DNA from: a virus
Taxonomy: Duplodnaviria; Caudoviricetes
Virus record (IMG/VR): IMGVR_UViG_3300032013_000003
Location: 1-59,063 of that record
Reading direction: 5' to 3' (one strand)
Length of the DNA: 59,063 bases
Part shown: positions 10,954 to 59,063 of the stretch, piece after piece
Numbering within the stretch: position 1 is the first letter of the stretch
Layout of the letters: each line of letters starts with the position of its first letter
Notes under the pieces: generated by a model
The model's input: the letters and a program-made list of their open reading frames with translations, nothing else
What the model was told of the DNA's origin: nothing
Database searches by the model: none
Position numbers and translations under genes: made by a program

Positions 10954-11013
10954 GCATAGTTACGAGATCGAAAAACGCGAGGTGAACCCCAAATCGGCTC
11001 CGAGTTCCGTTGG

Positions 11014-12915: not shown

Positions 12916-12921
12916 GCGATT

Positions 12922-12949
12922 ACTGTACGTCATGTATTCCATCCGTCAA
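12922..12949 (-). promoter_or_regulatory. Sigma70-like promoter, probably leaderless
   Basis: TTGACG-16nt-TACAGT, then 6 nt to ATG at 12915. Confidence 0.55.
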
Positions 12950-33094: not shown

Positions 33095-33529
33095 GTGGAC
33101 GAACCGCTGACACCGCGACAGCTGCGCCGGCTCGTTGCTCAGGTCGACGCCGAGGATCGCCGGAATCGACACGCTGACACTGGAGTCGACGAGACCAAGC
33201 TGACGCCGACCGAGCAGGCCTTCTGCGCGCTGGCCGCGAGTCGTGGGCGGCGCGTCATCCGCAACGGGTGGCCGGACTTCCTCGTAGAGGACCCGAAGAC
33301 TGGCAAGATGATCGCGGTCGAAGTGAAGTCGAACGTTGACGCGCTACGTCCGGAGCAACGCAGGATGTTCGCGGCGCTCGAGCGACTCGGGATCCGCGTG
33401 TTTGTGTGGAGACCAAAGAGCCCGAGGAGTCTCTCGCCTTGGAGTAGCAAGAAGCTCAGGAAGCCCCGAGAAGATCGCGAGCAGGGGGCGAGGCTTCCTG
33501 CTGTGCGTAGGATGAGACCTATCCGTTAG
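33095..33529 (+). CDS. VRR-NUC (PD-(D/E)xK) nuclease
   Basis: GWPDFL...VEVKS...LRPEQ. Confidence 0.8.
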   Translation: MDEPLTPRQLRRLVAQVDAEDRRNRHADTGVDETKLTPTEQAFCALAASRGRRVIRNGWPDFLVEDPKTGKMIAVEVKSNVDALRPEQRRMFAALERLGIRVFVWRPKSPRSLSPWSSKKLRKPREDREQGARLPAVRRMRPIR

Positions 33530-33743
33530 TGCGCACACATTCGGCGCGTCACCAATGACGTGGCTTACGCTGGAAGAATAAATCGACGTCATGGCCGAAA
33601 GTATCGGAGTGACAGTACCATGGTTCGACTAGTTGAGACTATGACACAAATGTCCGTATGGTCACGTATGGTCATTTCGTGTAGAACCAACTCGACCATG
33701 CGCTTCCGGTGTCTTGCAACGCCGTACCCCGGGCAGAAGTAGC
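33530..33743. promoter_or_regulatory. AT-richer intergenic region at early/late boundary (late promoter or pac candidate)
   Basis: Tandem CGTATGGTCA x2 at 33655-33674 and related ATGGT/ACCAT motifs. Confidence 0.45.
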
Positions 33744-34154
33744 GTGGGTCGCCCGCGCGCTCAGTTCCCGGCCCTCGTCGACGTCAACATCGACGGCATC
33801 GTCATCGGCTCGCATGCGCTGACGAAGAACGTCGAGCGTCTCGAGCGCATCCTGAACGTCGTCGGCCGGCGCCTCGCGCACTGGCTCAAGTCGACCGCGG
33901 ACACGCAGCCGCTCCCACCCGAGGAGTGGACCGAGAATTTCAAGTTCTACTCGAGCGCGCTGACCAACCTGCTCAAGGAGCAACGCGAGCGCTACCGCCT
34001 GACGCAGCACGATCAGGCCACGCCCGAACAGCTGCAGGCCCAGTTCCGCGAGGAGCTGCAGCGAGCTCTGCAGTCCTTCACGCCGCAAGAGCGTGCGTTC
34101 ACCCTGGCACTCTGGGATGCGAGCGCGACTACCACAACGGAGACGCCACAGTGA
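33744..34154 (+). CDS. Possible terminase small subunit
   Basis: First late ORF, helical, GRP N-terminus; position only. Confidence 0.35.
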   Translation: MGRPRAQFPALVDVNIDGIVIGSHALTKNVERLERILNVVGRRLAHWLKSTADTQPLPPEEWTENFKFYSSALTNLLKEQRERYRLTQHDQATPEQLQAQFREELQRALQSFTPQERAFTLALWDASATTTTETPQ

Positions 34155-34375
34155 AAGAGGCAGACTTCGAGAAGTACACCGAGGACCGCGACGTGCTGGA
34201 GCCGTTTGTGCGTCGCACGCTCGCTCGTGTTCGAGAGCGGCATCCCAGCGTCACACTCGAAGACATCACAGTGGTCATCGAGGTCAAAACGCCCAGCCCG
34301 AACGTCGGGCTCGACGCCAAGCTGCGGTTCGCGCGCTTGCTGTCCGACATGGACCGAGAGGGTGTTGTCTTGTGA
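34151..34375 (+). CDS. Hypothetical protein
   Basis: GTGA-coupled. Confidence 0.5.
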   Translation: MKEADFEKYTEDRDVLEPFVRRTLARVRERHPSVTLEDITVVIEVKTPSPNVGLDAKLRFARLLSDMDREGVVL

Positions 34376-34629
34376 TCAGTCCCAAGCGCGCCGTCGAGCG
34401 CTGCGAACGCCTCGCTGCCCTCGGTCCGCCACCGCCACAGCGCCACAACCGCAAGTTGAAGCGCTGGCTCGACGCGTTCTCGTCGATCATGGTGAGCGAG
34501 ATGAGCGAGATGAGCGAGATGAGCGAGATACTGCGTGCGGTCTACACGCCAGGCAGCATCGAGGACCTGGCGCATCGCCCGATGCCGTGGGTCTACGGGC
34601 TGATCCGCAAGGAGTCGAAGGATGCCTGA
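34372..34629 (+). CDS. Small protein resembling the major capsid N-terminal arm
   Basis: ILRAVYTPGSI...LIRKE vs MCP FLKDVYTTEKI...FMSKE; internal (TGAGCGAGA)4. Confidence 0.55.
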   Translation: MISPKRAVERCERLAALGPPPPQRHNRKLKRWLDAFSSIMVSEMSEMSEMSEILRAVYTPGSIEDLAHRPMPWVYGLIRKESKDA

Positions 34630-34999
34630 CCATCGCCCACACCCGCGCCTGCGCTGGCACACCGAGGACGTCACGCGCGAGCCGATCTTCGTCGTGCCAG
34701 GCGCGTCGGTCGGCTCGTCATCCGTCGTTCCGCGCGGCAAGACCTGGGGCATCCGCGAGCGCGGCGACACGGGCAAGCTGGTGCCGCACAGCTACCGATG
34801 CCCGGTGCACGGGGTGTTCGATCTGCGCGTGCCGGTGAGCGACGTGCCGGATGAGGTGGCGTGCACGGCTGAACTCATGGACGTGCCGCTGGACGTTGCG
34901 CTCGTCGCGTTCCACCCTGGGAATTACTGCGGCTACATGTCGCCCTGGGCCGGCGCGACCTGCGCGATCGGCGTGGAGTCCGGGATGGTGAACGGGTGA
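34622..34999 (+). CDS. FmdB-like zinc-ribbon protein
   Basis: YRCPVHGVFD...C...C. Confidence 0.5.
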   Translation: MPDHRPHPRLRWHTEDVTREPIFVVPGASVGSSSVVPRGKTWGIRERGDTGKLVPHSYRCPVHGVFDLRVPVSDVPDEVACTAELMDVPLDVALVAFHPGNYCGYMSPWAGATCAIGVESGMVNG

Positions 35000-35181
35000 G
35001 CGTCGTGCACCTGTACAGCAACGAGGGATACGACGAGAGCGAAGTGTGGTGCGGCGAAGTCGCGTACTATCGCGATGGCACGCCCGCGCGAGAGCCTCAC
35101 AAGGCCACGTGCAAGCACTGCCTGTCCGAGGCTGCGATCTACGGTGAGGCAGCGATGGTGCGACTGAAGGAGCTGCAGTGA
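34996..35181 (+). CDS. Small Cys protein
   Basis: VH...WCG...ATCKHCL. Confidence 0.5.
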   Translation: MSVVHLYSNEGYDESEVWCGEVAYYRDGTPAREPHKATCKHCLSEAAIYGEAAMVRLKELQ

Positions 35182-35447
35182 CCGCCTTCGACTTCGCCGG
35201 TGCACCTCGCTCCTTCTCTCGTGGCAAGCGCGTCACCCTCGACGGTGCATTCTGGGCAGAAGGATGCATCGGCGCCGGGATGCTCGGCCTTCCGGCGGTT
35301 CCCGTGCATCGCCTCGGGCTCGACTGGCCGCGCTGCTTCCATTCGCTCGGCGTGGCGCTCGGGCGGCATGAGGTGCGACGGCTCGAGCTGAACGTCGCGC
35401 AGCAGGCGTGGATGCAGAGCCCGATCGCGCGGAGACAGGCGCCGTGA
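35178..35447 (+). CDS. Hypothetical protein
   Basis: Coupled ORF. Confidence 0.45.
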   Translation: MTAFDFAGAPRSFSRGKRVTLDGAFWAEGCIGAGMLGLPAVPVHRLGLDWPRCFHSLGVALGRHEVRRLELNVAQQAWMQSPIARRQAP

Positions 35448-35755
35448 AGCACTCCCCCGACTGCGCACTCGTCCTCTACGCCAGCATCGACCCAGCGACG
35501 CTCAAGCGCCCGCTCGAGTGCGACGGCGTGGAGTGCGACGGCGCGCACGCGATGCCCGATGCTCCCGAGGAAGCGCCGACCGAGGACGATGCACCCTCGA
35601 ACGTGCGCCCGATTCGCTCAGGCAATGACGTCGTGCTCACGGGCGATGCAGCACGCGCCTACCGACAGCTGCAGAAGGCCGAGCAGGCGCTGCGGGGCGC
35701 GCAACGAAGCAAGGACGAGGCGCTGAGGGCGTTTCTCGAGGCGGTGACGAGGTGA
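35444..35755 (+). CDS. Hypothetical protein
   Basis: Coupled ORF. Confidence 0.5.
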   Translation: MKHSPDCALVLYASIDPATLKRPLECDGVECDGAHAMPDAPEEAPTEDDAPSNVRPIRSGNDVVLTGDAARAYRQLQKAEQALRGAQRSKDEALRAFLEAVTR

Positions 35756-35891
35756 AGTTCACCTTCACGCGAGCCGAACTCGAGGAGAGTCGCTTCTCGT
35801 GGCGCTGGATCACGTGGTGCCGCGAGTGGGGGTACATCGGCGCGGCATTCGCCGAACTGGATCGCCTGGAGCGTGCGCTGTGGGAGCGGTC

Positions 35892-36461
35892 ATGATCGCC
35901 GCTGCCGAGACGAACCACGTCGCCCTCGAGCGCATCGGTGGCGCACCGCTTTCCCTTCGCATCCGCCACGCGCATCGCGACGACCCGGGCGAGATGGCCT
36001 ACATCCGATCATCGTTCGGCGAGGGCTACAAGCAGAGCAGCAACCGCCTGTTCAAGATGCCATGGCCCGACTTCAAGCGCCTCGAGCGGCCCCGACTGGA
36101 CGCTGTGCTCGGTCGGGCTGACACGCAGCTGCTCGTCGCGGACCTCGACGGTGCGGTCGCAGGCTGGCTCGCGTGGTGCCCCGGGCGCCGCGTCGACACC
36201 GTGCACTGGACGCACACGCGGCTGCGGATCCACGAGGACAACTGCGCCACACGCGCGGACCGACGAGCGAAGTGCGACTGTGACGCTGAGGACCTGCGCA
36301 AGCGTCGGGTCATGACGACCCTGGTGAACGCGGCGCAGCTCAAGAATCGACTGGTCTACACGCATCGCGGGGCACGTCGCTCCGATGAGTGGATCGTGCC
36401 GTGGCTCGCAAGGCGCGGCGTAACCGCGGCATTTTTGTCGCTACGTGAATGGGAGACCTGA
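35892..36461 (+). CDS. GNAT-family acetyltransferase-like protein
   Basis: LLVADLDGAVAGWL strand pattern; motif A-like LRKRRVMTTL after a Cys/His insertion. Confidence 0.6.
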   Translation: MIAAAETNHVALERIGGAPLSLRIRHAHRDDPGEMAYIRSSFGEGYKQSSNRLFKMPWPDFKRLERPRLDAVLGRADTQLLVADLDGAVAGWLAWCPGRRVDTVHWTHTRLRIHEDNCATRADRRAKCDCDAEDLRKRRVMTTLVNAAQLKNRLVYTHRGARRSDEWIVPWLARRGVTAAFLSLREWET

Positions 36462-37003
36462 TGAACTCCGAGATCGACATCACCGAGAGGTTTGCCGAGG
36501 TAGCCGATGGCCCATGGTATGAGTGGGACCCGCGCGTCACGGCCGCAATCGAACCGCACATTCCGAGCGACCGGGACCTGACGCAGCGATTCCGCGCCCG
36601 ACTCGAGAAGCAGGCGCCCGGGACCGAGTGCACCGCGAGCAAGTCTGCCAGCGCGCGCTACACCGTGGTCGACAACGTGAACTACGAGCGCAGCAAGCGC
36701 TACCTGCGCGTGCGCATCGGCACGGAGCACGTCTTCGCAGCGACGCGACTCTCTGACGTCGTTCGTCGTGCGTACTTCGATGCGGCTGACCTGCTCGCCG
36801 ACACGATCGCACTGCAGGTCCACGCCATGCGCCGAGAGCACGGGAGGGTGGTGGTCAGCTGGCTGCCGTCCGGGTTGATGCATCAGAAGACCGGCGACGA
36901 GCGCCTCCGCATCGCCACCGATCCATACACCGACACGGCCGTCGCGCTGATCGCGGCCTACTACGTCGTCGCGCCGGTCAGCAAGGAAGGGTTCGCACCG
37001 TGA
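36461..37003 (+). CDS. Protein containing major-capsid-like segments
   Basis: RSKRYLRVRIGTEHVFAATRLSD vs MCP 84-106 RKTQYQRIVVNHELLFATARKSD (9/23 identical, ungapped). Confidence 0.6.
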   Translation: MNSEIDITERFAEVADGPWYEWDPRVTAAIEPHIPSDRDLTQRFRARLEKQAPGTECTASKSASARYTVVDNVNYERSKRYLRVRIGTEHVFAATRLSDVVRRAYFDAADLLADTIALQVHAMRREHGRVVVSWLPSGLMHQKTGDERLRIATDPYTDTAVALIAAYYVVAPVSKEGFAP

Positions 37004-37239
37004 ACGCCGAGATCGGAATCGACGGCGAAGGCCGCGCCTACGTGCTGCTCAGCAAGCTGACGCCGACCGAGCAGGACCTCATGAAGTACCTGCGCGCGTT
37101 CCTGCCGCTGAAGTACTACGAGTTCGACGCCGAAGCGCGCATCGTCGGCGATCGCCTGCCTGGCTCAGGGCGCGACGTTGTCTACCAGGAGCCGGGCAAG
37201 TCGGACGGGGTGAGCGTCGGCAAGAAGGATCAGGCATGA
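37000..37239 (+). CDS. Hypothetical protein
   Basis: Coupled ORF. Confidence 0.5.
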   Translation: MNAEIGIDGEGRAYVLLSKLTPTEQDLMKYLRAFLPLKYYEFDAEARIVGDRLPGSGRDVVYQEPGKSDGVSVGKKDQA

Positions 37240-37586
37240 AACTCCTTTCCATCAAGCTGCCCGACCTGCCCATCCTCGGCAGCCAATCGCACTTCTACTG
37301 CGACAAGCCCAACGCGCCGCTCAAGGGCTGGTCGGTGCACGTCCGCGGGCCCGTGGTGTTCCTCGTCTCGCCGCCCGGCTGGATGCCCGGTGAACCGTCG
37401 GCCCGGTTCGATCCGAAGGGCCCGCGCCGCATGGTCGGCCCGCTGCGTGACTGCGTGCTGTTCTGGGAAGGCGGCGACGTGGACGCGGCGCAGAAGTACG
37501 ACGGTGAGCCGATGGGCATGCCGGTCGAGGTGCTGAGCGACGAGGAGATGGAGCGGGCGACGGCGCCGAAGAGGGTGGCGAAGTGA
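37236..37586 (+). CDS. Hypothetical protein
   Basis: Coupled ORF. Confidence 0.55.
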   Translation: MKLLSIKLPDLPILGSQSHFYCDKPNAPLKGWSVHVRGPVVFLVSPPGWMPGEPSARFDPKGPRRMVGPLRDCVLFWEGGDVDAAQKYDGEPMGMPVEVLSDEEMERATAPKRVAK

Positions 37587-37930
37587 GCCAGTCCGCGACG
37601 TGGGACACGATGCAGGTGGCGCGCGATGCCCGGCTGTGTGGACGACTCGACGTCGCGGAAGCGCTGCAGGCGGAGATCGACGAGGATCTGCCCGCGTACT
37701 CGCACTTCTACGCAAGAAAATGCAGTCGACCGCACCAGCTGTCACAGGTCGACTTCCTCGAGTGGACCGGAACGCACGAGGCGGCGCGGCTCGTGTCAGT
37801 TCAGATGGCGCAGTCGCTGAACTACAGCGCGCCGATTCAGTTCGAGCGCGGCTCCGATGCCATCGAGATGCGCATGCGCTACTACCACGCCAGCCACTTC
37901 GGCTGGAACGGCGTGTTCCGGATCGACTGA
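37583..37930 (+). CDS. Protein resembling the major capsid C-terminus
   Basis: DAIEMRMRYY...GWNGVFRID vs MCP DSAEARLANY...GWNWNAKIN. Confidence 0.5.
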   Translation: MSQSATWDTMQVARDARLCGRLDVAEALQAEIDEDLPAYSHFYARKCSRPHQLSQVDFLEWTGTHEAARLVSVQMAQSLNYSAPIQFERGSDAIEMRMRYYHASHFGWNGVFRID

Positions 37931-37934
37931 CGCC

Positions 37935-39809
37935 ATGCACCTCGACCCCTCCGTCCTCTCGACCCTCGGCAGACTGGCCAAGCTGCGGCCGGCGGAGGCG
38001 GTGAGCGACGAGGCCAAGGAGACGCCCGAACAGGCTGCGGCGGTGCTGCGCAACCTGGGCTACCCCCACCCCAAACAGGCGGCGTTCTTCCGACGCAGCA
38101 AGGCAGCATGGAAGGCGACCTGCAAGACGCGTCGAGCCGGCGCCACTGCGGGCGGCGTGCGCGAGTTCTTGGCCCGAGCCATCGAGCAGCCAGGTTTCCG
38201 CGCCACGTACGTCACGACGACGCGCCAGGAAGCCCACGACCGCGCGTGGGAGAACGACAATGACTCAGGCTTCGTCCAGATCCTTCGCAAGTACGCCACG
38301 CCACGACGTCACCCGACGCTGAAAGAGGCGTTCGTGTGGGGCGGGGTTCAGATCGACGTCCGCGAGGGCGACCTCGTGCTCAAGTTCTCCAACGGGTCGC
38401 ACATCGAGCTGTTCGGCGCGGACAACGTGCGTCGGCACCGCACCAAGCGCGGCAACTCCAAGCACGTCTTCTGGATCGACGAGGCGCAGGACTTCCCGTC
38501 GCTCGACGTGTTCTTCGATCGCGTCGTGATCGGATCGCTGACCGACTACGAGGGCGAGGCGTGGATCACGGGAACCCCCGGCGTCGACTGCGTCGGCATG
38601 TTCTACGATATCACCAAGGATGTCGACGACGGGCGAATCGAAGGCTGGGAGGTCCACACGATCGCGGTGGTCGATAACCCGTACTTCGGCCACGTCGTCA
38701 CTGATACAACCGATGGCGCGACGATCTACTACGTCGAGGACAACGCCGGAGAGCGATCCGGTCCGTACGACACCACCGAGCAGGCCGAGAAGATCGCAGT
38801 CGAGGTCCGGTGGGAGCGCACCGCCGGCGCGGCCAAGCGCAAGAAGAACTGGAAGGGCACGGAACCAGACTTCGTTCGCGAGTGGCTCGGGCGCTGGGTG
38901 AAGGACGATGCTCGGTTCGTCTACCCGGTCCACGCGGTGCCGAAGCACGTACTCATCTACGCACCGCAGCGGCTCGCCGACAACCCGTTCTGGTCGACCG
39001 ACGATCGATTCAAGGATCACCCGCCCTGGTACGACCACAACGCAGCGCTTGCCGACCTGCCGCACCCGCCCCGGAACTGGGGCCGCCGCGAGTATCAGTG
39101 GCTGTTCGGTCTCTGGGTCGACTTCGGCTACAACCCTGACCCGTTCGCCATCGTGATCGGCGCGTTCACCCCAGACCTGAACGACGTCTACGAGATGTTC
39201 AGCTGGAAGTGCACCAAGGTCCACACCGACGATCAGGGCGGCTACATGAAGCTCGCCTACGACACCGTCGACTCACTAGTGTCGTTCGTCGGAGACCCGG
39301 CCGGCAAGCAGGACGACTTCGAGGTGTGGAAGACGCGGATGAACCTGCCCATCACCGAGGCGAACAAGCAGGGCAAGAACACGCTCGAGGAGTTCCTCGC
39401 TGACGACATCCGTCGCGGCTGGTACCACCTGCGCGCGGAGCCCGACGGCAAGAACCCGTCGCCGCTCTACCTCGAGATGCAGCACCTCGTCTACCTCCCC
39501 GGCAAACCCGGCAAGACTCGTGAGGTTCACAAGCATCGCAAGGTCAACGGCATCGAGTACGGCGATCATTGCGTCGACGCGGCCAGGTACGGCCACGCTG
39601 ACCTCACGCACTATCTGGCTCGAGCGCCCGAAGAGAAGCCACCCGCCGGTTCACGCGAGGCGCTTCAGGCCGAGGCAGATCGCGAAGAGGAGCGCCTCGA
39701 TGCCCGCATGGCCCGGCAGCAGCGGGCGTACGAGGAGGGCGACGAGGTCCCGGGCGAGTACAATCAGACCGAGAACACCGTGTATGGGAGCCATGCGTAT
39801 GACTACTAG
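37935..39809 (+). CDS. terL: Terminase large subunit
   Basis: PHPKQ Q-motif, RRAGAT Walker A variant, WIDEAQ Walker B, TGTP, VDFG and DHCVDAARY nuclease motifs. Confidence 0.92.
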   Translation: MHLDPSVLSTLGRLAKLRPAEAVSDEAKETPEQAAAVLRNLGYPHPKQAAFFRRSKAAWKATCKTRRAGATAGGVREFLARAIEQPGFRATYVTTTRQEAHDRAWENDNDSGFVQILRKYATPRRHPTLKEAFVWGGVQIDVREGDLVLKFSNGSHIELFGADNVRRHRTKRGNSKHVFWIDEAQDFPSLDVFFDRVVIGSLTDYEGEAWITGTPGVDCVGMFYDITKDVDDGRIEGWEVHTIAVVDNPYFGHVVTDTTDGATIYYVEDNAGERSGPYDTTEQAEKIAVEVRWERTAGAAKRKKNWKGTEPDFVREWLGRWVKDDARFVYPVHAVPKHVLIYAPQRLADNPFWSTDDRFKDHPPWYDHNAALADLPHPPRNWGRREYQWLFGLWVDFGYNPDPFAIVIGAFTPDLNDVYEMFSWKCTKVHTDDQGGYMKLAYDTVDSLVSFVGDPAGKQDDFEVWKTRMNLPITEANKQGKNTLEEFLADDIRRGWYHLRAEPDGKNPSPLYLEMQHLVYLPGKPGKTREVHKHRKVNGIEYGDHCVDAARYGHADLTHYLARAPEEKPPAGSREALQAEADREEERLDARMARQQRAYEEGDEVPGEYNQTENTVYGSHAYDY

Positions 39810-39962
39810 AATCGGCGGCACCAGCGAGTGGCTGTATCGCATGCAGCGCGAAGAGGAGATCCGACGCAGGCGGATGTGGAACGCATGGCCGATCGTTCCC
39901 GTGCACGAGGACGCACGCTCGTACGAGAACCACGACCCCGGCGACGAGGACAGGAGCGAGCG

Positions 39963-40184
39963 ATGAGCGAGATCTATGCCGTTTGGTGGTGCGCCGCAGG
40001 CGAGAAGAACCTCGGCGACGGTCCGACGAACTGGGTCGGCGCATGGACGTCGCTCGACGCCGCGCGCGCCGCGCAGATGGCGGTGGCCGGCAGTTGGATC
40101 AACACCGGCATCGTGACCCTGCCCCTCAACGCCGACCGCCCGACGTCGCGCCACGATGCGCAGCAAGGCGATCCGTACCCGTGA
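39963..40184 (+). CDS. Hypothetical protein
   Basis: Coupled ORF with AGGAG RBS. Confidence 0.5.
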   Translation: MSEIYAVWWCAAGEKNLGDGPTNWVGAWTSLDAARAAQMAVAGSWINTGIVTLPLNADRPTSRHDAQQGDPYP

Positions 40185-40438
40185 AGCCACCCACCGGCCC
40201 CATCGACGCCGACGAGGACGGCAACGCCATCCCGGTCCCGCCTGCCGAGTCCGACCTCGCCCAGCTAATCCAGCTGCTCGAGTACGGGCGCCGCCGCGGG
40301 TTCCGGATCGGCCCGACCGTGAAGATCGGCCATCTCGTGACGCAGGTGCAGGACCTGAGGCAGAAAGAGGGCACCGGCCAGGACCTCGAGCCGGATCCTG
40401 GACCGTGGCGCGCTGCAGGGTACGAGGGAGACGAGTGA
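40181..40438 (+). CDS. Hypothetical protein
   Basis: Coupled ORF. Confidence 0.55.
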   Translation: MKPPTGPIDADEDGNAIPVPPAESDLAQLIQLLEYGRRRGFRIGPTVKIGHLVTQVQDLRQKEGTGQDLEPDPGPWRAAGYEGDE

Positions 40439-40803
40439 AGCCCAGCAGCGAGATCGACACCAAGCCGATCCGCAAGCCCGCGCCGCGCCCGCCGATCGAG
40501 CGGTATCTGCGCTGTTCGGTCGAGATCCCCGACGGTAGCGTCGAGATGGGACTCGAGGTTACCGGGCTGGCCGATCGCCAGGAGACGCGTACCGTCCTTC
40601 GCGCGATCGCCACCATGGCGTACATGCGCGCCCGTCTTCAGGGCGGATGGGCAACGACCGAGGAGTTGGCCGACGTCATTACCCCGGACCTTGAAGCCAA
40701 CATGGACGAGATGTGGCCGAATCGGCCGTGGTTTGTCGAGGTCTGGTCATCGGCCGAGGCGCTCACCCAAGTCTACGCGCCGCTCGGCATGCCCATCCGC
40801 TGA
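40435..40803 (+). CDS. Hypothetical protein
   Basis: Coupled ORF. Confidence 0.55.
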   Translation: MKPSSEIDTKPIRKPAPRPPIERYLRCSVEIPDGSVEMGLEVTGLADRQETRTVLRAIATMAYMRARLQGGWATTEELADVITPDLEANMDEMWPNRPWFVEVWSSAEALTQVYAPLGMPIR

Positions 40804-40887
40804 ACCCTATTGCGCGCCCGCGCGCGTTGTGTAACGCTCCCTGCAAATCAACCGGTCCACAGGCAAAGGGACCATCGATCCCTTGCC

Positions 40888-42843
40888 ATGGCCCCACGCT
40901 ACAACGCCCCCATCCGCAGCGACGCACACTGGATGCGCGCGAAGGTGGGCGAGCCGGTGCACGATCGGCTGGTCCCGTACGGCAAGGCGCTGCTCGAGCG
41001 CGAAGCGAACTTCCACGCGAAGAACCTCACGAGGGAGCGCGTGTACCGCGGTGTCGACCTGCAGAACCAGCGGATCGCGCTCGCCGCGCTGTCCGGCTCG
41101 GGCATGGGCATCGCGCGGCTGAACGTCATCAAGGCGATCGGCGACACCTTCGCTTCGCGGCTGTCGAAGGACCGTCCGATGCCCGGGATCGTCGTCAACG
41201 ATTCGGACTTCGAACTGAAAAAGCGGGCCAAGGACTATCGCGAGTTCATCGTCGGCCAGATGCGCGACACCGAGTTCGACGCGCTGTCGGTTCGCGCGCT
41301 ACAGGACGGCGTCAAGCTGGGCCTCGGCTTCACGCGCGTCGACGACAGCGACGAGGCGGTTATCGCCGAGCGCATCCCGGTGAACGATCTGCTGTTCGAC
41401 CGGCGCGAGCTCAAGTACGGCAAGCCGCGCCAGGCGATCCGGATCCAGCGCGTCGCCCGTGACCACCTCGCCGAGCTGTTCCCGAAGCACAAGGAATGGA
41501 TCCTCGAGCGCTGCGCTGCCTCGCTGCGCCGTAAGGACGACACCGACGTGGACGGCGACGGCCCGAAGGTCGGCGACCTGGACGACTACGTCGACACGTG
41601 GGAGGCGTGGTTCCCGCCGATGGTGCCTGACTCGGACATCGGCCGGCACGTGCTCTGCGTCGAGGGCCTGACGCTCGTCACCGAGCAGTGGCACGAGCCG
41701 CGGTTCCCGTGGTCGATGTTCCAACTCGGCGATCCCGACTGGGGCATCTACCCCGAGGGATTCGTCGACATGCTCATCGGGATCCAGCACCGGATCAACC
41801 TGATCGTGCGGGACATCCAGCTGAACCTCGCCGCGACGGGCCGCGGGATCTGGATGGTCAACAAGGCGAACGACATCCCGGTGGAAATGCTCGCCGGCGC
41901 CGCGCCCTACAAGGTCAACTACAACGGCTCGCAGCCGCCGACGTACATCGCGCCGCAGTCCTTCAACATGGCGCAGATGTCGGCGCTCAAGGAGTTCATC
42001 GGCTGGGCCTTCGACCTCTCGGGCGTCTCGAAGGCGAACGCGGAGTCGAAGTCCTCGCTCGGCGCCGGCGCCTCGGGCGTCGCGCTGGACACGCAGTACG
42101 ACATCGACAGCGACCGGTTCCGCATTCCACAGGCGAACTACGCGCGGTACCGGATGCACGGCGGTCAATGCTACCTCGACGCCAGCGCGCGCGTGGCCCG
42201 TCGGCGGCAAGAGGGCAAGGGCGAGAAGCGCTCATGGGTCGCCACGACGTGGAAGTCCAAGGATGCGATCCAGAAGCTGGACTACTCGAAGGTCGTGCTC
42301 GAGGAGGGCTCGTACCGCCTGCGCATCGAGCCGGTCGGGTTCATCCCGGACACTCGCGCGGGCAAGATCGCGGTGGTCGAGCAGCTGGCCAAGGCCGGCG
42401 TCATCCCGCAGTGGCTCGTGCCGATGCTGTTCGACGAGCCCGACCTCGCCGAGGCGAGCCGTATCATGCTCGCACCGATCAAGAACTGCCTGCGCAAGAT
42501 GGATCTGCTCGCCGAGGTCGACGAGGACCTGCCGATGCCCGAGCAGTACAACGACCTCGACATCGAGCTGAAGGTCTCGGTCGCCTACTACAACTGGATT
42601 CAGTGCGAGAACGCGCCGCCCGAGATCCAGGAGCGCTACCGCACGTACTGCGACCTCGTGACCGAGGCGATCAAGGTCAAGGGTCCCGCGACTCCGCCGA
42701 TGGGCATGGCGCCCGCCGAGCAGCCGCTCCCTGGTGGCGTCCCGATGATGCCGCAAGGGCCAGTCCCGCCACCCATGCCGATCGGCGCCCCGCCGATGGG
42801 TCCACCCATGATGCCGCCGGCGCAGATGCCGATGGCGGCCTGA
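40888..42843 (+). CDS. Portal protein
   Basis: 651 aa between terL and scaffold; LSGVS...SGVAL motif; Pro/Met-rich tail as in podoviral portals. Confidence 0.85.
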   Translation: MAPRYNAPIRSDAHWMRAKVGEPVHDRLVPYGKALLEREANFHAKNLTRERVYRGVDLQNQRIALAALSGSGMGIARLNVIKAIGDTFASRLSKDRPMPGIVVNDSDFELKKRAKDYREFIVGQMRDTEFDALSVRALQDGVKLGLGFTRVDDSDEAVIAERIPVNDLLFDRRELKYGKPRQAIRIQRVARDHLAELFPKHKEWILERCAASLRRKDDTDVDGDGPKVGDLDDYVDTWEAWFPPMVPDSDIGRHVLCVEGLTLVTEQWHEPRFPWSMFQLGDPDWGIYPEGFVDMLIGIQHRINLIVRDIQLNLAATGRGIWMVNKANDIPVEMLAGAAPYKVNYNGSQPPTYIAPQSFNMAQMSALKEFIGWAFDLSGVSKANAESKSSLGAGASGVALDTQYDIDSDRFRIPQANYARYRMHGGQCYLDASARVARRRQEGKGEKRSWVATTWKSKDAIQKLDYSKVVLEEGSYRLRIEPVGFIPDTRAGKIAVVEQLAKAGVIPQWLVPMLFDEPDLAEASRIMLAPIKNCLRKMDLLAEVDEDLPMPEQYNDLDIELKVSVAYYNWIQCENAPPEIQERYRTYCDLVTEAIKVKGPATPPMGMAPAEQPLPGGVPMMPQGPVPPPMPIGAPPMGPPMMPPAQMPMAA

Positions 42844-42849
42844 GGAAGA

Positions 42850-43131
42850 ATGCGAATCGTCTTCGACCGCCCGCTCTCCGTCGAGCAGACCCAGATCGCC
42901 GTCGACGAGTCTCGTTACTCGTACGGCATCAAGCTTCCGAAGGTCAGCTACCTGACCATGGAAGGCGACACCAGCGCCGCCGATCGCGAGACCGAGGCGC
43001 GCGAGTGCCAGCCGTCGAGCATGTTCACGCCCGTCGACACCGACTGGGGCGAGCAGGATTCGCTCGCCAACATCCCGCGCAAGAAGGTCCCGTCCTGGAT
43101 CCGCGCGCTCAGCCTCAAGGATAACGAGTAA
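42850..43131 (+). CDS. Hypothetical protein
   Basis: GAGG RBS; between portal and scaffold. Confidence 0.55.
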   Translation: MRIVFDRPLSVEQTQIAVDESRYSYGIKLPKVSYLTMEGDTSAADRETEARECQPSSMFTPVDTDWGEQDSLANIPRKKVPSWIRALSLKDNE

Positions 43132-44435
43132 TGGACGTCGAATTCCACGAGGAGATGTCACCGATCGGCGGCGCCAAGCCTGCCGCTGGCAACTCACAGC
43201 GCGCGCGTGGCCAGATTCACGAGTCGGTGACCGTCGGGTCGGGATCGTCCGAGCCCGTCCGCGACGAGCCGGCCGGATCCGTCGAGCAGGAGTCGGTGAC
43301 CATCGGCAAGGGTGGTCGCGGCTTCGGCCTGTCGCCCACCGCGCGCAAGATGCTCGAGAACATCGACAAGCACGGGACGGTCTCCGACGAGCCGCCCGAA
43401 GCCACCAAGGCCGATTCGCCGCCTGCTGCAGGAGCACCGGCCGCCGCTGTGAATCCTCCCGCCACGCCGACCGGGGCGTCTGCTCCTGCAGCCACCGCGG
43501 CTCTCCCGACCGCGCCGGCGACGTCCACCGAGGACGCGATCGCCGAGATGAGGGCCCGCGCGGACCGGTTCGCGGAGCACAACACGCGGCTCGTCACCGA
43601 GCTCGAGCAGCTGCGCGCGCGCCCGACCCGGGGCGAGCCATCGAAGCGCGAGCAGGCGCTCGACGAGGCCGAGCGGACCATCATGGAGGACTCGATCGGC
43701 GCGCTCCGGCGGGTCTACGCCACTGCGCTGGGCGTCGAGGACCCGAAGCATCCCGACGTCGACAAGCACCTCACGTGGCTGTACCATGACCTCACCGAGC
43801 GCGAGCTCGGCGTGCCGCTCGACCCGAGCATCAAGGCACAACGCGAGTCCGAGCGCGTGAAGCACCTGCTCGCCCGCGACCGGCGCGAGCGCACGGCAGA
43901 GGCGGCGAAGCCTGCCGAGCAGCCCGTCGACCACGAGACCGTGCAGAAGACCGCGGCCGTCACGCGCCTCATCAGCGAGGGCGACCACGCAACGAAGTTC
44001 CCGCTCCTGCGCAATCTGAGCGCGGACTTCGACGGCATGAAGCCCGAGGAGCTGCTGTGGCGAGAAATCAGCCGCGGCCTCCAGACCGGCGAGTACGCCA
44101 ACCCGACGACGCCGGCGCATGACCAACAGCTGATCGATCTCGCATCCCGCAAGATCGAGACTCACTACCAAGCCCTTGCCGAGAAGATCGCCAAGGCAAC
44201 GCAGAAGTCACCCGCAGCAAGCACCGCCACGCCAACTCAAGCAGCCGTAGCGACGGATCAAAAAGCGGAGCCACAGGGAAACGGGCCCCGGACCATCACG
44301 AACGCGAGCGCGAGTGTTGCACCCGCAACAACTCCGGCAGCAAAGCCAGCACCGACCGAGACGACCCCGAAGCCGTGGAGAAACGAAAAGGAGCGCATCA
44401 AGTGGCTCGCCTCCAAGCACTTCGGGGAGACCTGA
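43131..44435 (+). CDS. Capsid scaffolding protein
   Basis: Low-complexity termini, charged coiled coil, immediately before MCP. Confidence 0.7.
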   Translation: MDVEFHEEMSPIGGAKPAAGNSQRARGQIHESVTVGSGSSEPVRDEPAGSVEQESVTIGKGGRGFGLSPTARKMLENIDKHGTVSDEPPEATKADSPPAAGAPAAAVNPPATPTGASAPAATAALPTAPATSTEDAIAEMRARADRFAEHNTRLVTELEQLRARPTRGEPSKREQALDEAERTIMEDSIGALRRVYATALGVEDPKHPDVDKHLTWLYHDLTERELGVPLDPSIKAQRESERVKHLLARDRRERTAEAAKPAEQPVDHETVQKTAAVTRLISEGDHATKFPLLRNLSADFDGMKPEELLWREISRGLQTGEYANPTTPAHDQQLIDLASRKIETHYQALAEKIAKATQKSPAASTATPTQAAVATDQKAEPQGNGPRTITNASASVAPATTPAAKPAPTETTPKPWRNEKERIKWLASKHFGET

Positions 44436-44478
44436 TCGATAGCTGACTCGCGGTGCTCCCCAACAAGGAGCACACCAC

Positions 44479-45747
44479 GTGACCGCACATACGCTAGCGA
44501 ATCAAGACGCCTTCCTCAAGGACGTCTACACCACCGAGAAGATCCTCGAGCAGAGCTACGGGGAGAATGCCCTGTTCGCCTTCATGTCGAAGGAGCAGGG
44601 CGTCATGGCCGGCGGACGTCGATACGTCCAGCCTGTCGAGTTCGGCAACCCGAGCGGCGCGAACGGCGACTACGCGTCCGCGATGACCGACAACACGATC
44701 AGCCAGTACGAGGACTTCCTCATCCCGCGGAAGACTCAGTACCAGCGCATCGTGGTGAACCACGAGCTGCTGTTCGCGACGGCGCGCAAGTCCGACGCGT
44801 ACGTCAGTTCGATCAAGGAGTTCGACCGCGGATTCAAGTCGCTGGGCGAGAAGATCGGGCGCCGCCTGTACCGCACCGCGGGTGGCAACATCGGCAAGCT
44901 CGCGATCGCCTCGACGAACACGACCACGCTGACGTTCACCGACAACGCGGCCGTCTTCAACTTCCACATCAACCAGGTCCTGCAGTTCAGCGCGACCGAC
45001 GGCACCGGCTCGCTGCTCGACAGCGGCGACACCACGACCGTCACCGCGGTGGACCATGAGTCCGGCTCCGTCACGATCGCCGACAACCTCGGCACCAAGA
45101 TCGCCGGCGTCGCGACCTCCTCGTACGTCTTCCAGCGCGGCGACTACGGCGTCTGCCTCGCCGGCGTCGAGGACTGGCTTCCGATCGACGACCGCACCAC
45201 GAAGCTGGCCGCGTCGTTCAACTCGGTCGTGCGTACGCCCGCCCCGGTCTACCTGGGCGGCATCTACTACGACGGCACCGCGGCCGGTGGCCTCGACGAG
45301 GTCATCATCAAGGCGACCGGCAAGGCTGGCAAGTACGGCGCCAAGACGTCGCACATCTTCGCCAATCCCGAGTCGCTGTCGGACCTCGAGCTGATCAGCA
45401 ACTCGAAGATGCGCATCCTCGGCGAGCTGACCACGTCGATCCGCAATGAGACCGGCGACCTGATCGTCGGGTTCAGCGGCTACAAGGCCCTCGTCGGCGG
45501 GCGCGTCGTTCGCATCTACCCCGACCGCAACTGCCCCTCGAATCGCCTCACCGGCCTGCAGCTCGACACGTGGACCCTCTGGCACACGGGCGAGCTGATC
45601 AACTGGACCGGCGAGTCGTACACCGGCAACCGCCTGCAGCCCTCGCAGAACGAGGACAGCGCGGAGGCCCGCCTCGCGAACTACTCCAACGTCGGTTGCA
45701 AGGCACCGGGATGGAACTGGAACGCGAAGATCAACCCGAGCACCTGA
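44479..45747 (+). CDS. Major capsid protein
   Basis: 422 aa, strong AAGGAG RBS, strongly biased codons, position after scaffold. Confidence 0.85.
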   Translation: MTAHTLANQDAFLKDVYTTEKILEQSYGENALFAFMSKEQGVMAGGRRYVQPVEFGNPSGANGDYASAMTDNTISQYEDFLIPRKTQYQRIVVNHELLFATARKSDAYVSSIKEFDRGFKSLGEKIGRRLYRTAGGNIGKLAIASTNTTTLTFTDNAAVFNFHINQVLQFSATDGTGSLLDSGDTTTVTAVDHESGSVTIADNLGTKIAGVATSSYVFQRGDYGVCLAGVEDWLPIDDRTTKLAASFNSVVRTPAPVYLGGIYYDGTAAGGLDEVIIKATGKAGKYGAKTSHIFANPESLSDLELISNSKMRILGELTTSIRNETGDLIVGFSGYKALVGGRVVRIYPDRNCPSNRLTGLQLDTWTLWHTGELINWTGESYTGNRLQPSQNEDSAEARLANYSNVGCKAPGWNWNAKINPST

Positions 45748-45756
45748 GGTACGGCC

Positions 45757-46155
45757 ATGACGACTCAAGGAACCGCTCGAAGCACTCACCCGGTCAACTC
45801 GCCGAGGTCCGGGACGGAGATCCTGTACGCCCACGTCACCGGCGGCGGCGCCGCGACGTCGTGCACGCTCGACGCGCAGAGTGCGCTCAACGGCGAGATC
45901 CTCTCGCTGACGTACTCGAGCACCGGCGTCTACACCGGCGTCTTTCGCTACGTCTACCCCGCACTCGTCGGCGCCCCGATCGTCTCGTGGGGCGCGCAGG
46001 GCACCGCCGGCATCCACGGCACCGTCACGGCGATCGACGTCACCGCCGGGACCTTCACCGTCAAGTTCTACGTCGGCAACACGCTGACGGACCTGGCGAC
46101 CACCGACACCCCCTACTTCACGTGGACGGTCCGCACGTCCGCAAGGAATCCGTAA
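45757..46155 (+). CDS. Putative capsid decoration/structural protein
   Basis: Thr/Gly-rich beta protein after MCP; STGVYT motif. Confidence 0.55.
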   Translation: MTTQGTARSTHPVNSPRSGTEILYAHVTGGGAATSCTLDAQSALNGEILSLTYSSTGVYTGVFRYVYPALVGAPIVSWGAQGTAGIHGTVTAIDVTAGTFTVKFYVGNTLTDLATTDTPYFTWTVRTSARNP

Positions 46156-46156
46156 C

Positions 46157-46879
46157 ATGCTGAGCGCAGAACAACTGAAGAAGGTCGGAAACTTCGACCA
46201 GAGCACCATCGACGGGCTCTCGGACGCGATCGGCGCCGGCATCGACGCCGTCTCCGCGGCCGGAGCGCTGTCGCTCACCACGTACCTCACCGAGTTGACC
46301 GTCTCGGGAACCAAGGCGTACACGCTCGCCGCGCCGACCGTCGCTGGTCAGCGCAAGCGCATCGTGTGCGTCTCGGCGGCCTCCACGCCGCTCGGGACCG
46401 TGACGATCTCGAGCCCGGACGACACCGCAGGGTTCGTCTGCTCCACGACGTTCACGTTCACGACCGTGGGTCAGGCGATCGAACTGGTCGCCACGTCCGG
46501 CCTGAAGTGGCGCGCGGTGCGCGTCGTGCGAGCCGGCGTCAAGGCCACCATCACCGCCGGCGTCGACGTCCTGACGGGCCTCAACCTGCACCAGGTGTAC
46601 TCGCTCGCCGTCGACGGGACGGACGCGGGCACCGGTGCCGGCGGCCTGCCGAATGGGTCGGCAGTCGGCGAGCGATGCTCGATCGTTTGCGAGCTTGCGG
46701 CCAACACGCCGATCGGCAGCCTCTCGGGCACCTACATCGGAATGTTCGGCACGGCCTACACCGCGGTCGGCGCGATCGGTGTCGTGGCATCGACGACCGT
46801 GGTCGGCGACTGCGCGCTGCTCGAGTGGACCGGGTCGGCCTGGCTCGTCGTGTATCAGAACGGCTGCACGCTCTCGTGA
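46157..46879 (+). CDS. Putative structural protein with two repeated beta domains
   Basis: Repeats GQRKRIVC/GERCSIVC and GQAIEL...W/GDCALLEW. Confidence 0.6.
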   Translation: MLSAEQLKKVGNFDQSTIDGLSDAIGAGIDAVSAAGALSLTTYLTELTVSGTKAYTLAAPTVAGQRKRIVCVSAASTPLGTVTISSPDDTAGFVCSTTFTFTTVGQAIELVATSGLKWRAVRVVRAGVKATITAGVDVLTGLNLHQVYSLAVDGTDAGTGAGGLPNGSAVGERCSIVCELAANTPIGSLSGTYIGMFGTAYTAVGAIGVVASTTVVGDCALLEWTGSAWLVVYQNGCTLS

Positions 46880-57950: not shown

Positions 57951-59063
57951 ATGCCGCTACTCCGCTCACCCAACGGCGCGGTCATCGACGTTCCAGCCGA
58001 GCAGGTCGGCAACTACGTCGGGTACGAGCCGGTCGAGGGCGCGGACGCGTCCCGTGCGATCGCCTCGCCCGAGTCGCCCGACCGCGGAGTGCTCGGCGGC
58101 CTCAACGCCGCGGCGACCGGCATCCTCAGCGGCGCCACGCTCGGCCTGTCCGACTACGCACTCAAGGGCGTGCTCGACCAGGGCCAGTTCGAGCGGCTCG
58201 CCGCGGAGCGCGAGGGTCACCCGGTCGCCGGCGGCATTGGACAGGTCGCGGGCGCGATCCTGCCTGCCATTGCGGCCCCGGGTTCGCTCCTGGCGCGCGC
58301 GCCGTCCGGTCTCGTGTCGCACGGGCTCGCCCCGCTGATCGCAGAGGGCAGGGCGCTGGGCGGCGCTGCAGGTGCCGGGAAGGTCCTACTCGCCGGCGGC
58401 ATCGAGGGCGCTGCGCAGAATGCCGGCATGTACCTGGCCGACACGGCCCTGGGCGATCGCGAACTATCGGCTGAGGGCCTTGCGGCATCGCTCGGTCCGG
58501 GGTTCGCGTTCGGCGTGGCCGGTGGCGCCGCAGCGCTGGGCGTCGAGAAGGGCACGATCGCCGCCCGGCGCATGTTCGCGCGGGTCGGTGGCGCGGACAA
58601 GGCAGCGGTCGAGGCCGAGCAGGCGTGGCTCGCGGCTCACCAGTCGACCGTCGAGGCGAACGACGCCGCGGCAGACCTTGCGCGCGCCAAGCTGGCCGAT
58701 GCGAAGGCGGCCCGCGAGCAGGCCCAGCTGATCAAGCAGCGCGCGCAGGCGGGCGTGGCGGACGCGAAGGTCGCCCCGGGATTCGACTGGGCTGGCGCGG
58801 AACTGCGCCCCACGCCAAGGAGCACGCCGCTCGGTGACGTCGCCAGCGAGGCTGACCTGCCGCTCGAGGTGCAGATCGCAGGCAAGTTGAACGACCGGGC
58901 GCACACGGGGCTCGTCCCTGGCGTCGTCGATCCGCGCAGGGTGCAGATCGACGCCGAACTCGCGGCGCTCAAGGCGAAGGTCACCGGCGGCCAGGTCGCC
59001 GCCGATGGCGCATCTCCGTTGTCCGAGGCGCGCAAGGGCGTCTGGCAGAGCCAGCGCGCCAAG
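57951..59063 (+). CDS. N-terminal part of the giant ejection protein (continues at position 8)
   Basis: MPLLRSPNG...GATLGLSD; open to the window end and in frame with 8..3676 through the terminal repeat. Confidence 0.8.
   Translation, partial: MPLLRSPNGAVIDVPAEQVGNYVGYEPVEGADASRAIASPESPDRGVLGGLNAAATGILSGATLGLSDYALKGVLDQGQFERLAAEREGHPVAGGIGQVAGAILPAIAAPGSLLARAPSGLVSHGLAPLIAEGRALGGAAGAGKVLLAGGIEGAAQNAGMYLADTALGDRELSAEGLAASLGPGFAFGVAGGAAALGVEKGTIAARRMFARVGGADKAAVEAEQAWLAAHQSTVEANDAAADLARAKLADAKAAREQAQLIKQRAQAGVADAKVAPGFDWAGAELRPTPRSTPLGDVASEADLPLEVQIAGKLNDRAHTGLVPGVVDPRRVQIDAELAALKAKVTGGQVAADGASPLSEARKGVWQSQRAK
58934..59063. repeat. Terminal direct repeat, right copy
   Basis: Matches 1-130. 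Confidence 0.95.

What the first reader, a model, noticed from the sequence alone, without database searches (positions are those of the whole stretch)
34372..37930. Three small pre-terminase genes each resemble a different piece of the phage's own major capsid protein (possible capsid-decoy/mimic system)
Seen by manual alignment to MCP 44479..45747. (1) 34372..34629 ILRAVYTPGSIEDLAHRPMPWVYGLIRKE vs MCP 12-39 FLKDVYTTEKILEQSYGENALFAFMSKE. (2) 36461..37003 RSKRYLRVRIGTEHVFAATRLSD vs MCP 84-106 RKTQYQRIVVNHELLFATARKSD, 9/23 identical without gaps. (3) 37583..37930 DAIEMRMRYY...GWN vs MCP DSAEARLANY...GWN. The pieces lie in N-to-C order, are intact translationally coupled ORFs and precede the real MCP in the late region. 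Established: some anti-phage systems are triggered by capsid proteins (CapRel-SJ46, Lit via the Gol peptide). Inference: these may be domesticated capsid fragments acting as sensor decoys, assembly modulators or interference factors against related phages, rather than debris.
Basis: partly seen in the sequence, partly recalled or inferred. Interest (0 to 1): 0.85.

Follow-up and report, generated by a model that had tools for sequence, protein, structure and literature searches.

The report
Small phage protein copies capsid N-arm
One of three small genes ahead of this phage's terminase really does carry a copy of the flexible N-terminal arm of the phage's own capsid protein, a second may carry its C-terminal tail, the third does not resemble it beyond chance, and the three do not form one system.

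Summary
The three ORFs are real, translationally coupled genes in the operon that runs into TerL. By pairwise comparison none resembles the MCP beyond chance (BLASTP E 44/1.7/4.2; shuffles 435/500, 29/500, 196/500 reach the observed score). Profiles reverse this for two of them. The ORF1 family (14 sequences) consists of a unique N-terminal helical half fused to a homologue of MCP residues 3-58, the N-arm. Evidence: hhalign P 1e-8; two independent subfamilies give P 1e-7 and 3e-6 in the same register; reciprocal HMM searches agree; 17 control families reach at best P 0.004. ORF3's last 24 residues match the MCP C-terminus (P 1e-4), and it is the first non-MCP hit among 3004 ORFs, but the family has only two sequences. 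ORF2 lies within the control range (P 0.1, or 0.007 with a distant homologue added). The genes occur independently: one close relative has ORF1 only and another has ORF3 only. ORF1 homologues always sit beside TerL or the portal gene. Most likely ORF1 is a head-module accessory protein that uses an N-arm copy to engage the scaffold or the MCP. Partly confirmed, moderately novel.

The parts
34372..34629 (+). ORF1 (85 aa). Residues 1-37 are a family-specific helical N-half. Residues 38-85 (34483-34626) are homologous to the MCP N-arm.
   Evidence: GC3 phase. 9 homologue clusters and 6 viral loci. hhalign P 1.2e-8. Subfamily replicates. HMM ranks. AF2 model with four helices, pLDDT 79.7.
34493..34529 (+). 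Perfect 9-bp tandem repeat (4.1 copies) inside ORF1. It encodes SEM repeats and replaces the family's conserved ALDIS motif.
36461..37003 (+). ORF2 (180 aa), an accessory gene of unknown function. Its similarity to the MCP is not beyond controls.
37583..37930 (+). ORF3 (115 aa). The C-terminal residues 91-114 (37853-37924) resemble the MCP C-terminus, residues 392-418.
37236..37586 (+). Conserved small gene that lies directly upstream of TerL in relatives. It marks the variable slot occupied by ORF3.
   Evidence: tblastn hits in L003, L004, L007, L008, L011 and L017. No family hit.
37935..39809 (+). Large terminase.
   Evidence: Pfam Terminase_6N, 22.2 bits, cut-off 22. Relatives.
40810..42843 (+). 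Portal protein (start codon uncertain).
   Evidence: P22_portal 24.6 bits, below the 26.1 cut-off. Conserved in relatives.
43131..44435 (+). Scaffolding protein (assigned by position), with a conserved C-terminal RTITNAxASVAP motif and a terminal basic helix.
   Evidence: No Pfam hit.
44479..45747 (+). Major capsid protein, HK97 fold. N-arm residues 3-58 are 44485-44652. C-terminal strands, residues 392-418, are 45652-45732.
   Evidence: 2036 representatives at E<=0.001. AF2 pLDDT 91.2. Foldseek top hits are phage capsids SU10, A-1(L), Pa223 and HK97. NCBIfam capsid_maj_Podo E 2.9e-7, below cut-off.
33633..33662 (+). Promoter-like site in the lower-GC gap ahead of the gene string g33714...ORF1...ORF2...ORF3-TerL.
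   Evidence: Consensus scan only. GC dip.

Best explanation
This is not a three-part system. The three ORFs are independent accessory genes sitting in variable slots of the operon that leads into the packaging and head genes.

Shown:
- ORF1 belongs to a small family of 80-120-aa proteins. Each has a strongly conserved, family-specific N-terminal helical half joined to a homologue of the first ~55 residues of this phage group's HK97-fold major capsid protein, that is, the N-arm.
- The family is found only beside TerL or the portal gene, in phages with this MCP family.
- ORF3 ends in a 24-residue tail resembling the MCP's C-terminal strands. This is probable, but rests on two sequences.
- ORF2 is unrelated to the MCP as far as can be shown.

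Inferred mechanism: in other phages the MCP N-arm is the element that binds the scaffolding protein in the procapsid and later locks onto neighbouring subunits. The N-arm copy in ORF1 would therefore let this small protein occupy N-arm binding sites, either on the scaffold C-terminus or on MCP neighbours. It would thereby be recruited into, or modulate, the assembling head. The conserved N-half would carry the actual activity.
For: Homology of ORF1's C-half to the MCP N-arm:
- hhalign P 1.2e-8.
- The close subfamily gives P 1.2e-7 and the distant subfamily P 3.1e-6, both to MCP 3-58/61. Long-tailed members extend the match to the RYVxPxxY strand.
- An HMM of MCP 1-65 was searched against 3004 six-frame ORFs. 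Ranks 1-7 are MCPs and ranks 8-14 are all 7 ORF1-family frames.
- The reciprocal HMM of the ORF1 C-half puts 6 MCPs at ranks 8-13. It hits 29 of 151 MCPs at E<=0.01, and 120 of 142 aligned stretches start in the first 20 residues.
- The N-half HMM finds no MCP (best E 0.7 of 151).
- The best of 17 control families scores P 0.0037.

Residue and structure agreement:
- The invariant ORF1 residues R55 and Y58 align with MCP K14 (nearly invariant) and Y17.
- Helices 60-68 and 72-79 of the ORF1 model align with MCP helices 19-27 and 31-35.

Context:
- All 7 ORF1 loci place the gene next to TerL or the portal gene: between TerL and portal in L012, L013 and L016, and upstream of TerL in the window, L011, L014 and L015.
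- The genes are translationally coupled into TerL.

Literature on the N-arm:
- It binds the scaffold in proheads and forms a sheet with a neighbour's E-loop in mature heads (passages read in PMC11922011).
- The 80alpha scaffold C-terminal helix-and-hook contacts the N-arm, and SaPI1 CpmB is drawn at the capsid protein in the same figure as the scaffold (passages read in PMC5644958).
Against: - No binding evidence of any kind was obtained. Complex prediction was never available.
- The tail after Y58 evolves fast. Between the window and L011, whose MCP N-termini are identical over 70 residues, the C-half has dN/dS about 1.6 against 0.20 for the N-half. This rests on about 40 codons and includes the repeat region.
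- In the other subfamily the C-half dN/dS is 0.44-0.90.
- The window's own ORF1 is the weakest single match to the MCP profile (P 0.0037). Its repeat has overwritten a conserved motif.
- ORF1 tails are not most similar to their own phage's MCP.
- The family is absent from L003, L004, L007 and L008, so it is dispensable.
- ORF1 shows no profile similarity to the scaffold (P 0.13).
Confidence: 0.42

Rival explanations
1. Recombination relics. The MCP-like stretches are historical scars: a 5' piece and a 3' piece of an MCP gene captured by illegitimate recombination and read through as tails of otherwise unrelated small genes. The proteins work through their non-MCP parts, and the tails have no capsid-related role.
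For: - Both matches involve the extreme ends of the MCP (residues 1-58 and 392-418) and form the C-terminal ends of the small proteins, as expected for captured gene ends.
- The ORF1 tail is the least conserved part of the family and carries large indels.
- dN/dS is about 1.6 for the window vs L011 and 0.44-0.90 elsewhere.
- There is no co-variation with the cognate MCP.
- These phages are strongly mosaic: MCP 98% but TerL 47% identity between the window and L011's phage.
Against: - Both ORF1 subfamilies, about 45% identical to each other, independently keep the MCP-like profile, with L54, R55 and Y58 invariant in 14 of 14 sequences.
- The ORF3 tail is conserved at 20/28 against 14/47 for its middle.
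- The ORF1 family is consistently linked to TerL or the portal gene at three different genomic positions.
Confidence: 0.28
2. Immune decoy. ORF1, and perhaps ORF3, present MCP end-segments to a host capsid-sensing defence protein and soak it up or block it without activating it.
For: - MCPs are direct triggers of CapRel-SJ46, and a short MCP peptide (Gol) suffices for Lit (passages read in PMC9712102).
- The tail evolves fast against an unchanged MCP N-arm, which fits an arms race.
- The genes are accessory and patchily distributed.
Against: - The genes lie in the late packaging and head operon, and in three loci between TerL and portal. They are not among early anti-defence genes.
- No PADLOC or other family hit ties them to defence.
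- A peptide copy of a trigger would be expected to trigger rather than block. This is inference.
- The host and its defence repertoire are unknown.
Confidence: 0.12
3. Chance resemblance throughout. None of the three ORFs is related to the MCP.
For: - Pairwise tests are at chance.
- ORF2 is within controls.
- The ORF3 family has only 2 sequences. Its single-sequence score (31.0, P 2.8e-4) is only a little above the best single-sequence control (g45757, 28.3, P 0.001).
Against: - For ORF1: replicated, reciprocal and position-specific profile hits, thousands of times better than 17 control families.
- For ORF3: it is the first non-MCP hit of 3004 ORFs (E 0.0011), and 0/240 shuffles reach its score. 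The match is end-to-end at both C-termini.
Confidence: 0.04

Closest known systems
SaPI1 CpmB versus the phage 80alpha scaffolding protein
   Same: A small accessory protein would engage the capsid-assembly interface at the MCP N-arm/scaffold contact. Passages read in PMC5644958 describe the scaffold C-terminal helix-and-hook on the N-arm, with CpmB shown at the capsid protein in the same figure. That CpmB competes through a scaffold-like C-terminus is taken from the paper's title and from recall.
   Different: Here the copied element is the MCP's own N-arm, not the scaffold's C-terminus (ORF1 vs scaffold family P 0.13). The gene is in the phage itself, not in a satellite. No size-redirection or binding data exist.
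T4 capsid targeting sequence (CTS) of internal proteins
   Same: A short shared sequence could act as a portable tag that brings diverse small proteins into the prohead. The passage read in PMC3012670 describes internal proteins that share only a conserved CTS and act as anti-restriction factors.
   Different: The T4 CTS is N-terminal, about 10 residues long and removed by the prohead protease (recalled). Here the shared segment is about 50 residues, C-terminal and homologous to the MCP itself. No prohead protease was recognised in the window. Packaging has not been shown.
Gol peptide of T4 gp23 / capsid triggers of CapRel-SJ46 and Lit
   Same: A short piece of an MCP can be biologically active on its own towards host immunity (passage read in PMC9712102).
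   Different: Gol is a region within the MCP, not a separate gene. It activates the defence rather than blocking it. No defence partner is known here.
Full-length MCP paralogues (T4 gp24 vertex protein; cf-PICI capsid homologues)
   Same: These are duplicated capsid-protein sequence used for a second role in head assembly (recalled). A cf-PICI capsid appeared among the Foldseek hits of the MCP model.
   Different: Those are complete HK97 folds. ORF1 carries only the N-arm: its model has four helices and no HK97 body, with no PDB fold match at E<=0.001.

Membership tests
HK97-fold MCP family of this phage group (as a fragment or paralogue) | Significant profile similarity to the MCP family, ORF1 | tested here: met
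   hhalign P 1.2e-8. Subfamilies give P 1.2e-7 and 3.1e-6. Reciprocal HMMs agree. 17 control families score P >= 0.0037. The match covers only MCP residues 1-58.
HK97-fold MCP family of this phage group (as a fragment or paralogue) | Significant profile similarity to the MCP family, ORF3 | tested here: inconclusive
   P 9.5e-5 over 24 columns. Rank 5 of 3004 (E 0.0011), while its homologue is at rank 8 (E 0.5). Only 2 sequences. MCP D393 and R398 are matched; C407 and P410 are not.
HK97-fold MCP family of this phage group (as a fragment or paralogue) | Significant profile similarity to the MCP family, ORF2 | tested here: not met
   P 0.1, with 7/70 shuffles reaching the score. P 0.0071 after adding the distant L004 homologue, which is within the control range. 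The HMM of MCP 66-135 ranks it 12th, E 4.6.
HK97-fold MCP family of this phage group (as a fragment or paralogue) | HK97 body (A and P domains, spine helix, E-loop) | tested here: not met
   The ORF1 AF2 model has four helices only and no capsid among its Foldseek hits. The Atlas model of ORF2 (pLDDT 0.51) has no capsid-like neighbour. No ORF3 model was made.
CpmB-like competing scaffold | C-terminus homologous to the phage scaffold's MCP-binding C-terminus | tested here: not met
   ORF1, ORF2 and ORF3 families vs the scaffold family: for ORF1 P 0.13, and the scaffold is not among the top 6 targets for ORF2 or ORF3.
T4-type CTS-tagged internal proteins | Short N-terminal targeting sequence cleaved by a prohead protease, and the protein packaged in heads | not testable with these tools
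   The tag-like segment here is C-terminal and about 50 aa. No protease family was found between portal and MCP. Packaging needs proteomics.
Known anti-phage defence or anti-defence families | Hit to a curated defence model | tested here: not met
   PADLOC: no hit for ORF1 or ORF3, and ORF2 has only RmrT at E 0.023. Pfam, PHROGs and NCBIfam give nothing.

The most novel reading that the evidence does not exclude
Phages of this group use copies of their capsid protein's terminal segments as portable modules: the N-arm in the ORF1 family and the C-terminal hairpin in ORF3. The copied arm docks a small effector onto the scaffold or capsid lattice, acting as a capsid-targeting tag or an assembly/interference factor against related co-infecting phages. 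Alternatively it titrates a host sensor that reads newly made MCP. Either way this would be a new class of 'self-mimic' accessory proteins of the head module.
Probability: 0.3. Interest if true: 0.8.

Novelty: new variant of a known kind. Interest (0 to 1): 0.55.

Why it matters
The N-arm is the switch element of HK97-fold capsids. It holds the scaffold in the prohead and locks capsomers together in the mature head. A free-standing, conserved small protein that carries a copy of that arm would be a natural tool for entering or tuning capsid assembly, or for confusing capsid-sensing immunity.

I found no report of such a family in five full-text searches. Those searches are by words only and cannot see subscription journals.

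The case also teaches a method.

Tried and rejected
Searches and models that gave nothing useful:
- Pairwise BLASTP and Smith-Waterman with shuffles gave no signal.
- Pfam, PHROGs, NCBIfam and PADLOC gave no family for any of the three ORFs.
- Phage GenBank records gave no DNA or MCP protein match.
- ESM Atlas gave only unnamed viral clusters at score 0.90 for ORF2 (a lead only) and nothing for ORF3.
- Foldseek of the ORF1 model gave 8 matches at E<=10 and none at E<=0.001.
- PDB sequence search with the MCP profile gave only a weak hit, 7f38, E 0.037.
- More ORF3 homologues: the viral and metagenome scans returned the same single contig.
- More ORF2 homologues: a viral scan with A7 found none.

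Tests of specific ideas:
- Cognate co-variation of ORF1 tails with MCP N-arms: none seen among 4 phages.
- ORF1 N-half as an MCP N-terminal extension: rejected, best E 0.7 of 151.
- Three-gene system: rejected on co-occurrence.

Technical failures:
- One search gave no answer.
- read stale output because hhalign fails on an .hhm template with -M 50 (shown). Its numbers are discarded and were replaced.

Tools not available:
- Complex prediction (MCP alignment plus ORF1 alignment): busy, then declared unavailable. No complex was folded, so nothing can be said on binding.
- Paper supplements were not consulted.

Limits of what was done:
- No structure was predicted for ORF2 or ORF3.
- dN/dS values come from about 40-codon halves and are rough.

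Full report
**What the window is**

The window is a complete or nearly complete uncultivated virus record: 59,063 bp, 98% complete by the record's estimate, 66% G+C. It has no DNA or MCP-protein match among GenBank phages.

The region 33.7-46 kb is a single + strand gene string. A promoter-like site lies in a lower-GC gap at 33633-33662. About a dozen small genes follow, then:
- TerL, 37935-39809 (Pfam Terminase_6N);
- portal;
- a 434-aa scaffold, assigned by position;
- the MCP, 44479-45747.

The MCP is confirmed in four ways. It has 2036 representative homologues at E<=0.001. Its AlphaFold model has pLDDT 91.2. Foldseek top hits are phage capsids: SU10, cyanophage A-1(L), Pa223 and HK97. It also gives a sub-threshold NCBIfam podovirus-capsid hit.

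In the model:
- residues 1-47 are the N-arm (helices 19-27 and 31-35), followed by strand 48-56;
- the E-loop is 76-94;
- the spine helix is 113-130;
- the C-terminus forms strands 394-407 and 414-418.

**Checking the observation**

The three ORFs exist as described. They have the right third-position GC phase and overlap their neighbours' stops by GTGA, ATGA or TGATG. The quoted peptides are correct.

Taken as pairwise alignments they are not evidence:
- In a Smith-Waterman test, 435/500 (ORF1), 29/500 (ORF2) and 196/500 (ORF3) residue shuffles reach the observed score.

**Family profiles change the picture**

I collected relatives for each ORF:
- ORF1 has 9 clusters among 5.8 billion proteins and 6 viral loci.
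- ORF2 has 2 clusters plus a distant gene in L004. hhalign of the ORF2 alignment A2 against that gene gives P 5e-5.
- ORF3 has 1 homologue.

I compared the alignments with a 99-sequence MCP alignment (A4). This used 99 of the 150 listed MCP hits: the window MCP plus P0019-P0120, with P0025, P0030, P0034 and P0081 left out.

ORF1:
- hhalign aligns ORF1 38-85 with MCP 1-54 at P 1.2e-8, Prob 95.6.
- No column-shuffled ORF1 alignment comes near the score of 56.8 (0/100, max 20.6; 0/40). The reversed alignment scores 16.1.
- The close subfamily alone gives P 1.2e-7 and the distant subfamily alone gives P 3.1e-6, in the same register. In long-tailed members the match runs on into the RYVxPxxY strand of the MCP.
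- Against a background of 3004 real six-frame ORFs from the window and 15 related loci, an HMM of MCP 1-65 ranks the 7 MCPs first and then all 7 ORF1-family frames at ranks 8-14.
- The reciprocal HMM of the ORF1 C-half ranks 6 MCPs at 8-13. It hits 29 of 151 MCPs at E<=0.01, and 120 of 142 aligned stretches begin in the first 20 MCP residues.
- The ORF1 N-half HMM finds no MCP (best E 0.7).
- Seventeen other gene families of this phage, treated the same way, give at best P 0.0037.
- ORF1's invariant R55 and Y58 align with MCP K14 and Y17.
- The two C-terminal helices of the ORF1 model (pLDDT 79.7) align with the two N-arm helices of the MCP model.

I regard this homology as established.

ORF3:
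- Residues 91-114 align with MCP 392-418 at P 9.5e-5.
- 0/200 and 0/40 shuffles reach the score.
- An HMM of MCP 385-422 puts the ORF3 frame first after the 4 MCPs (rank 5 of 3004, E 0.0011; best single stretch E 0.031). Its homologue in L017 is at rank 8 (E 0.5).
- Both matches sit at the very C-terminus of both proteins.
- MCP's nearly invariant D393 and R398 are matched; C407 and P410 are not.
- The tail is conserved between the two ORF3 sequences (20/28 identical), while the middle is not (14/47).

Against this, the family has only two members. As single sequences ORF3 scores 31.0, while the best of 15 control proteins (g45757) scores 28.3. I rate the ORF3 relation as probable, at about two in three.

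ORF2:
- P 0.1, with 7/70 shuffles reaching the score.
- Rank 12, E 4.6, with an HMM of MCP 66-135.
- Adding the distant L004 homologue lengthens the alignment (ORF2 71-117 vs MCP 81-131) and lowers P to 0.0071. That is within the control range and is not significant after 18 comparisons.
- The MCP is nevertheless the best of 18 targets for all three ORFs, so ORF2 is unproven rather than disproved.

**Anatomy and distribution**

The three genes do not travel together.
- L011's phage has an MCP 98% identical to the window's, a portal 95% identical, and an upstream neighbour gene (g33714) 99% identical. It carries ORF1 but has no room for ORF2 or ORF3 in the syntenic gaps.
- L017 (portal 88% identical) has ORF3 between the conserved g37236 homologue and TerL. 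At the ORF1 site its g33714 and g34622 homologues abut.
- L003, L004, L007 and L008 have none of ORF1 or ORF3.

The slot just upstream of TerL is variable. It holds ORF3 in the window and L017, a P-loop protein in L008, an ORF2-like gene in L004, and nothing in L003 or L011.

ORF1 homologues are always in the packaging and head neighbourhood, though not at one place. They lie between TerL and portal in L012, L013 and L016, about 700 bp upstream of TerL in L014 and L015, and further upstream in the window and L011.

**How it most likely works**

The homology and the genomic linkage are shown. The mechanism is inferred.

Passages I read state that the prohead N-arm binds the scaffolding protein in several phages, and later forms an intermolecular sheet with a neighbour's E-loop (PMC11922011). 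They also state that the 80alpha scaffold's C-terminal helix-and-hook sits on the N-arm helix (PMC5644958). This phage's scaffold ends in a conserved motif and a basic helix.

A small protein ending in an N-arm copy can therefore be expected to compete for, or be recruited by, the same sites. One possibility is that it is carried into the prohead. The T4 capsid targeting sequence is an analogy (PMC3012670, passage). The other possibility is that it modulates assembly.

Caveats:
- The tail is the fastest-evolving part. dN/dS is about 1.6 between the window and L011 although their MCP N-arms are identical, and 0.44-0.90 in the other subfamily.
- The window's copy has a recent perfect 9-bp repeat that overwrites a conserved motif.

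Fast tail evolution would also fit either a decoy in an arms race or a relic under weak constraint. These are the rivals.

**Comparison with known systems and novelty**

The nearest analogues are partial mimicry at the scaffold/N-arm interface (SaPI1 CpmB), T4 CTS tags, and MCP-derived peptides seen by immunity (Gol/Lit and CapRel; PMC9712102, passages).

ORF1 is not a member of any of these:
- it is unrelated to the scaffold;
- its tag-like part is C-terminal and MCP-derived;
- it has no HK97 body.

Five word searches of the held literature found no report of a phage small-protein family homologous to the MCP N-arm. This does not cover subscription journals or supplements.

**Verdict**

One robust and previously undescribed N-arm-bearing family is worth an experiment.

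Noticed in passing
window 34493-34529: A perfect 9-bp tandem repeat (TGAGCGAGA, 4.1 copies) inside ORF1 turns the family's conserved IMALDISExAEM into IMVSEMSEMSEMSEI. It looks like a recent slippage event in a conserved helix.
   Followed up: partly
L015 12562-13497 (within TerL 10915-13713); L005 1560-2506: TerL of two relatives carries an in-frame insertion of about 940 bp at the same position (about residue 545). In L015 the insertion hits Hint_2 (30 bits, cut-off 28.4) and Intein_splicing, so it is an intein in the large terminase.
   Followed up: partly
L011 / L019 (same virus record) versus window 33563-45747: Strong mosaicism. MCP 98%, portal 95% and g33714 99% amino-acid identity to the window, but TerL only 47%. 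The window also has an extra small gene (34155-34375) that is absent there.
   Followed up: partly
window 45757-46155 and 46157-46879: The two genes just after the MCP give the best control hits to the MCP profile (MCP 187-220, P 0.0037; MCP 149-178, P 0.021). This may reflect a shared insertion or decoration-type domain, or it may be noise.
   Followed up: no
L008 9577-9999; L004 3231-3749; window 37583-37930: The slot between the conserved g37236-like gene and TerL holds different cargo in different relatives: a P-loop/AAA protein, an ORF2-like gene, ORF3, or nothing.
   Followed up: partly
window 33095-33529: A VRR-NUC nuclease-domain protein (Pfam E 2.1e-9) ends the preceding gene block, just before the lower-GC gap and the promoter-like site.
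   Followed up: no
L012 1078-1764 (ORF 1303-1767): A pre-terminase ORF in a distant relative is the best non-MCP hit to the HMM of MCP 66-135 (E 0.024). It has no Pfam family.
   Followed up: no
window 2-3676 and 57951-59063: Long + strand ORFs run off both ends of the record, so the contig may be a circular permutation cut inside a gene.
   Followed up: no
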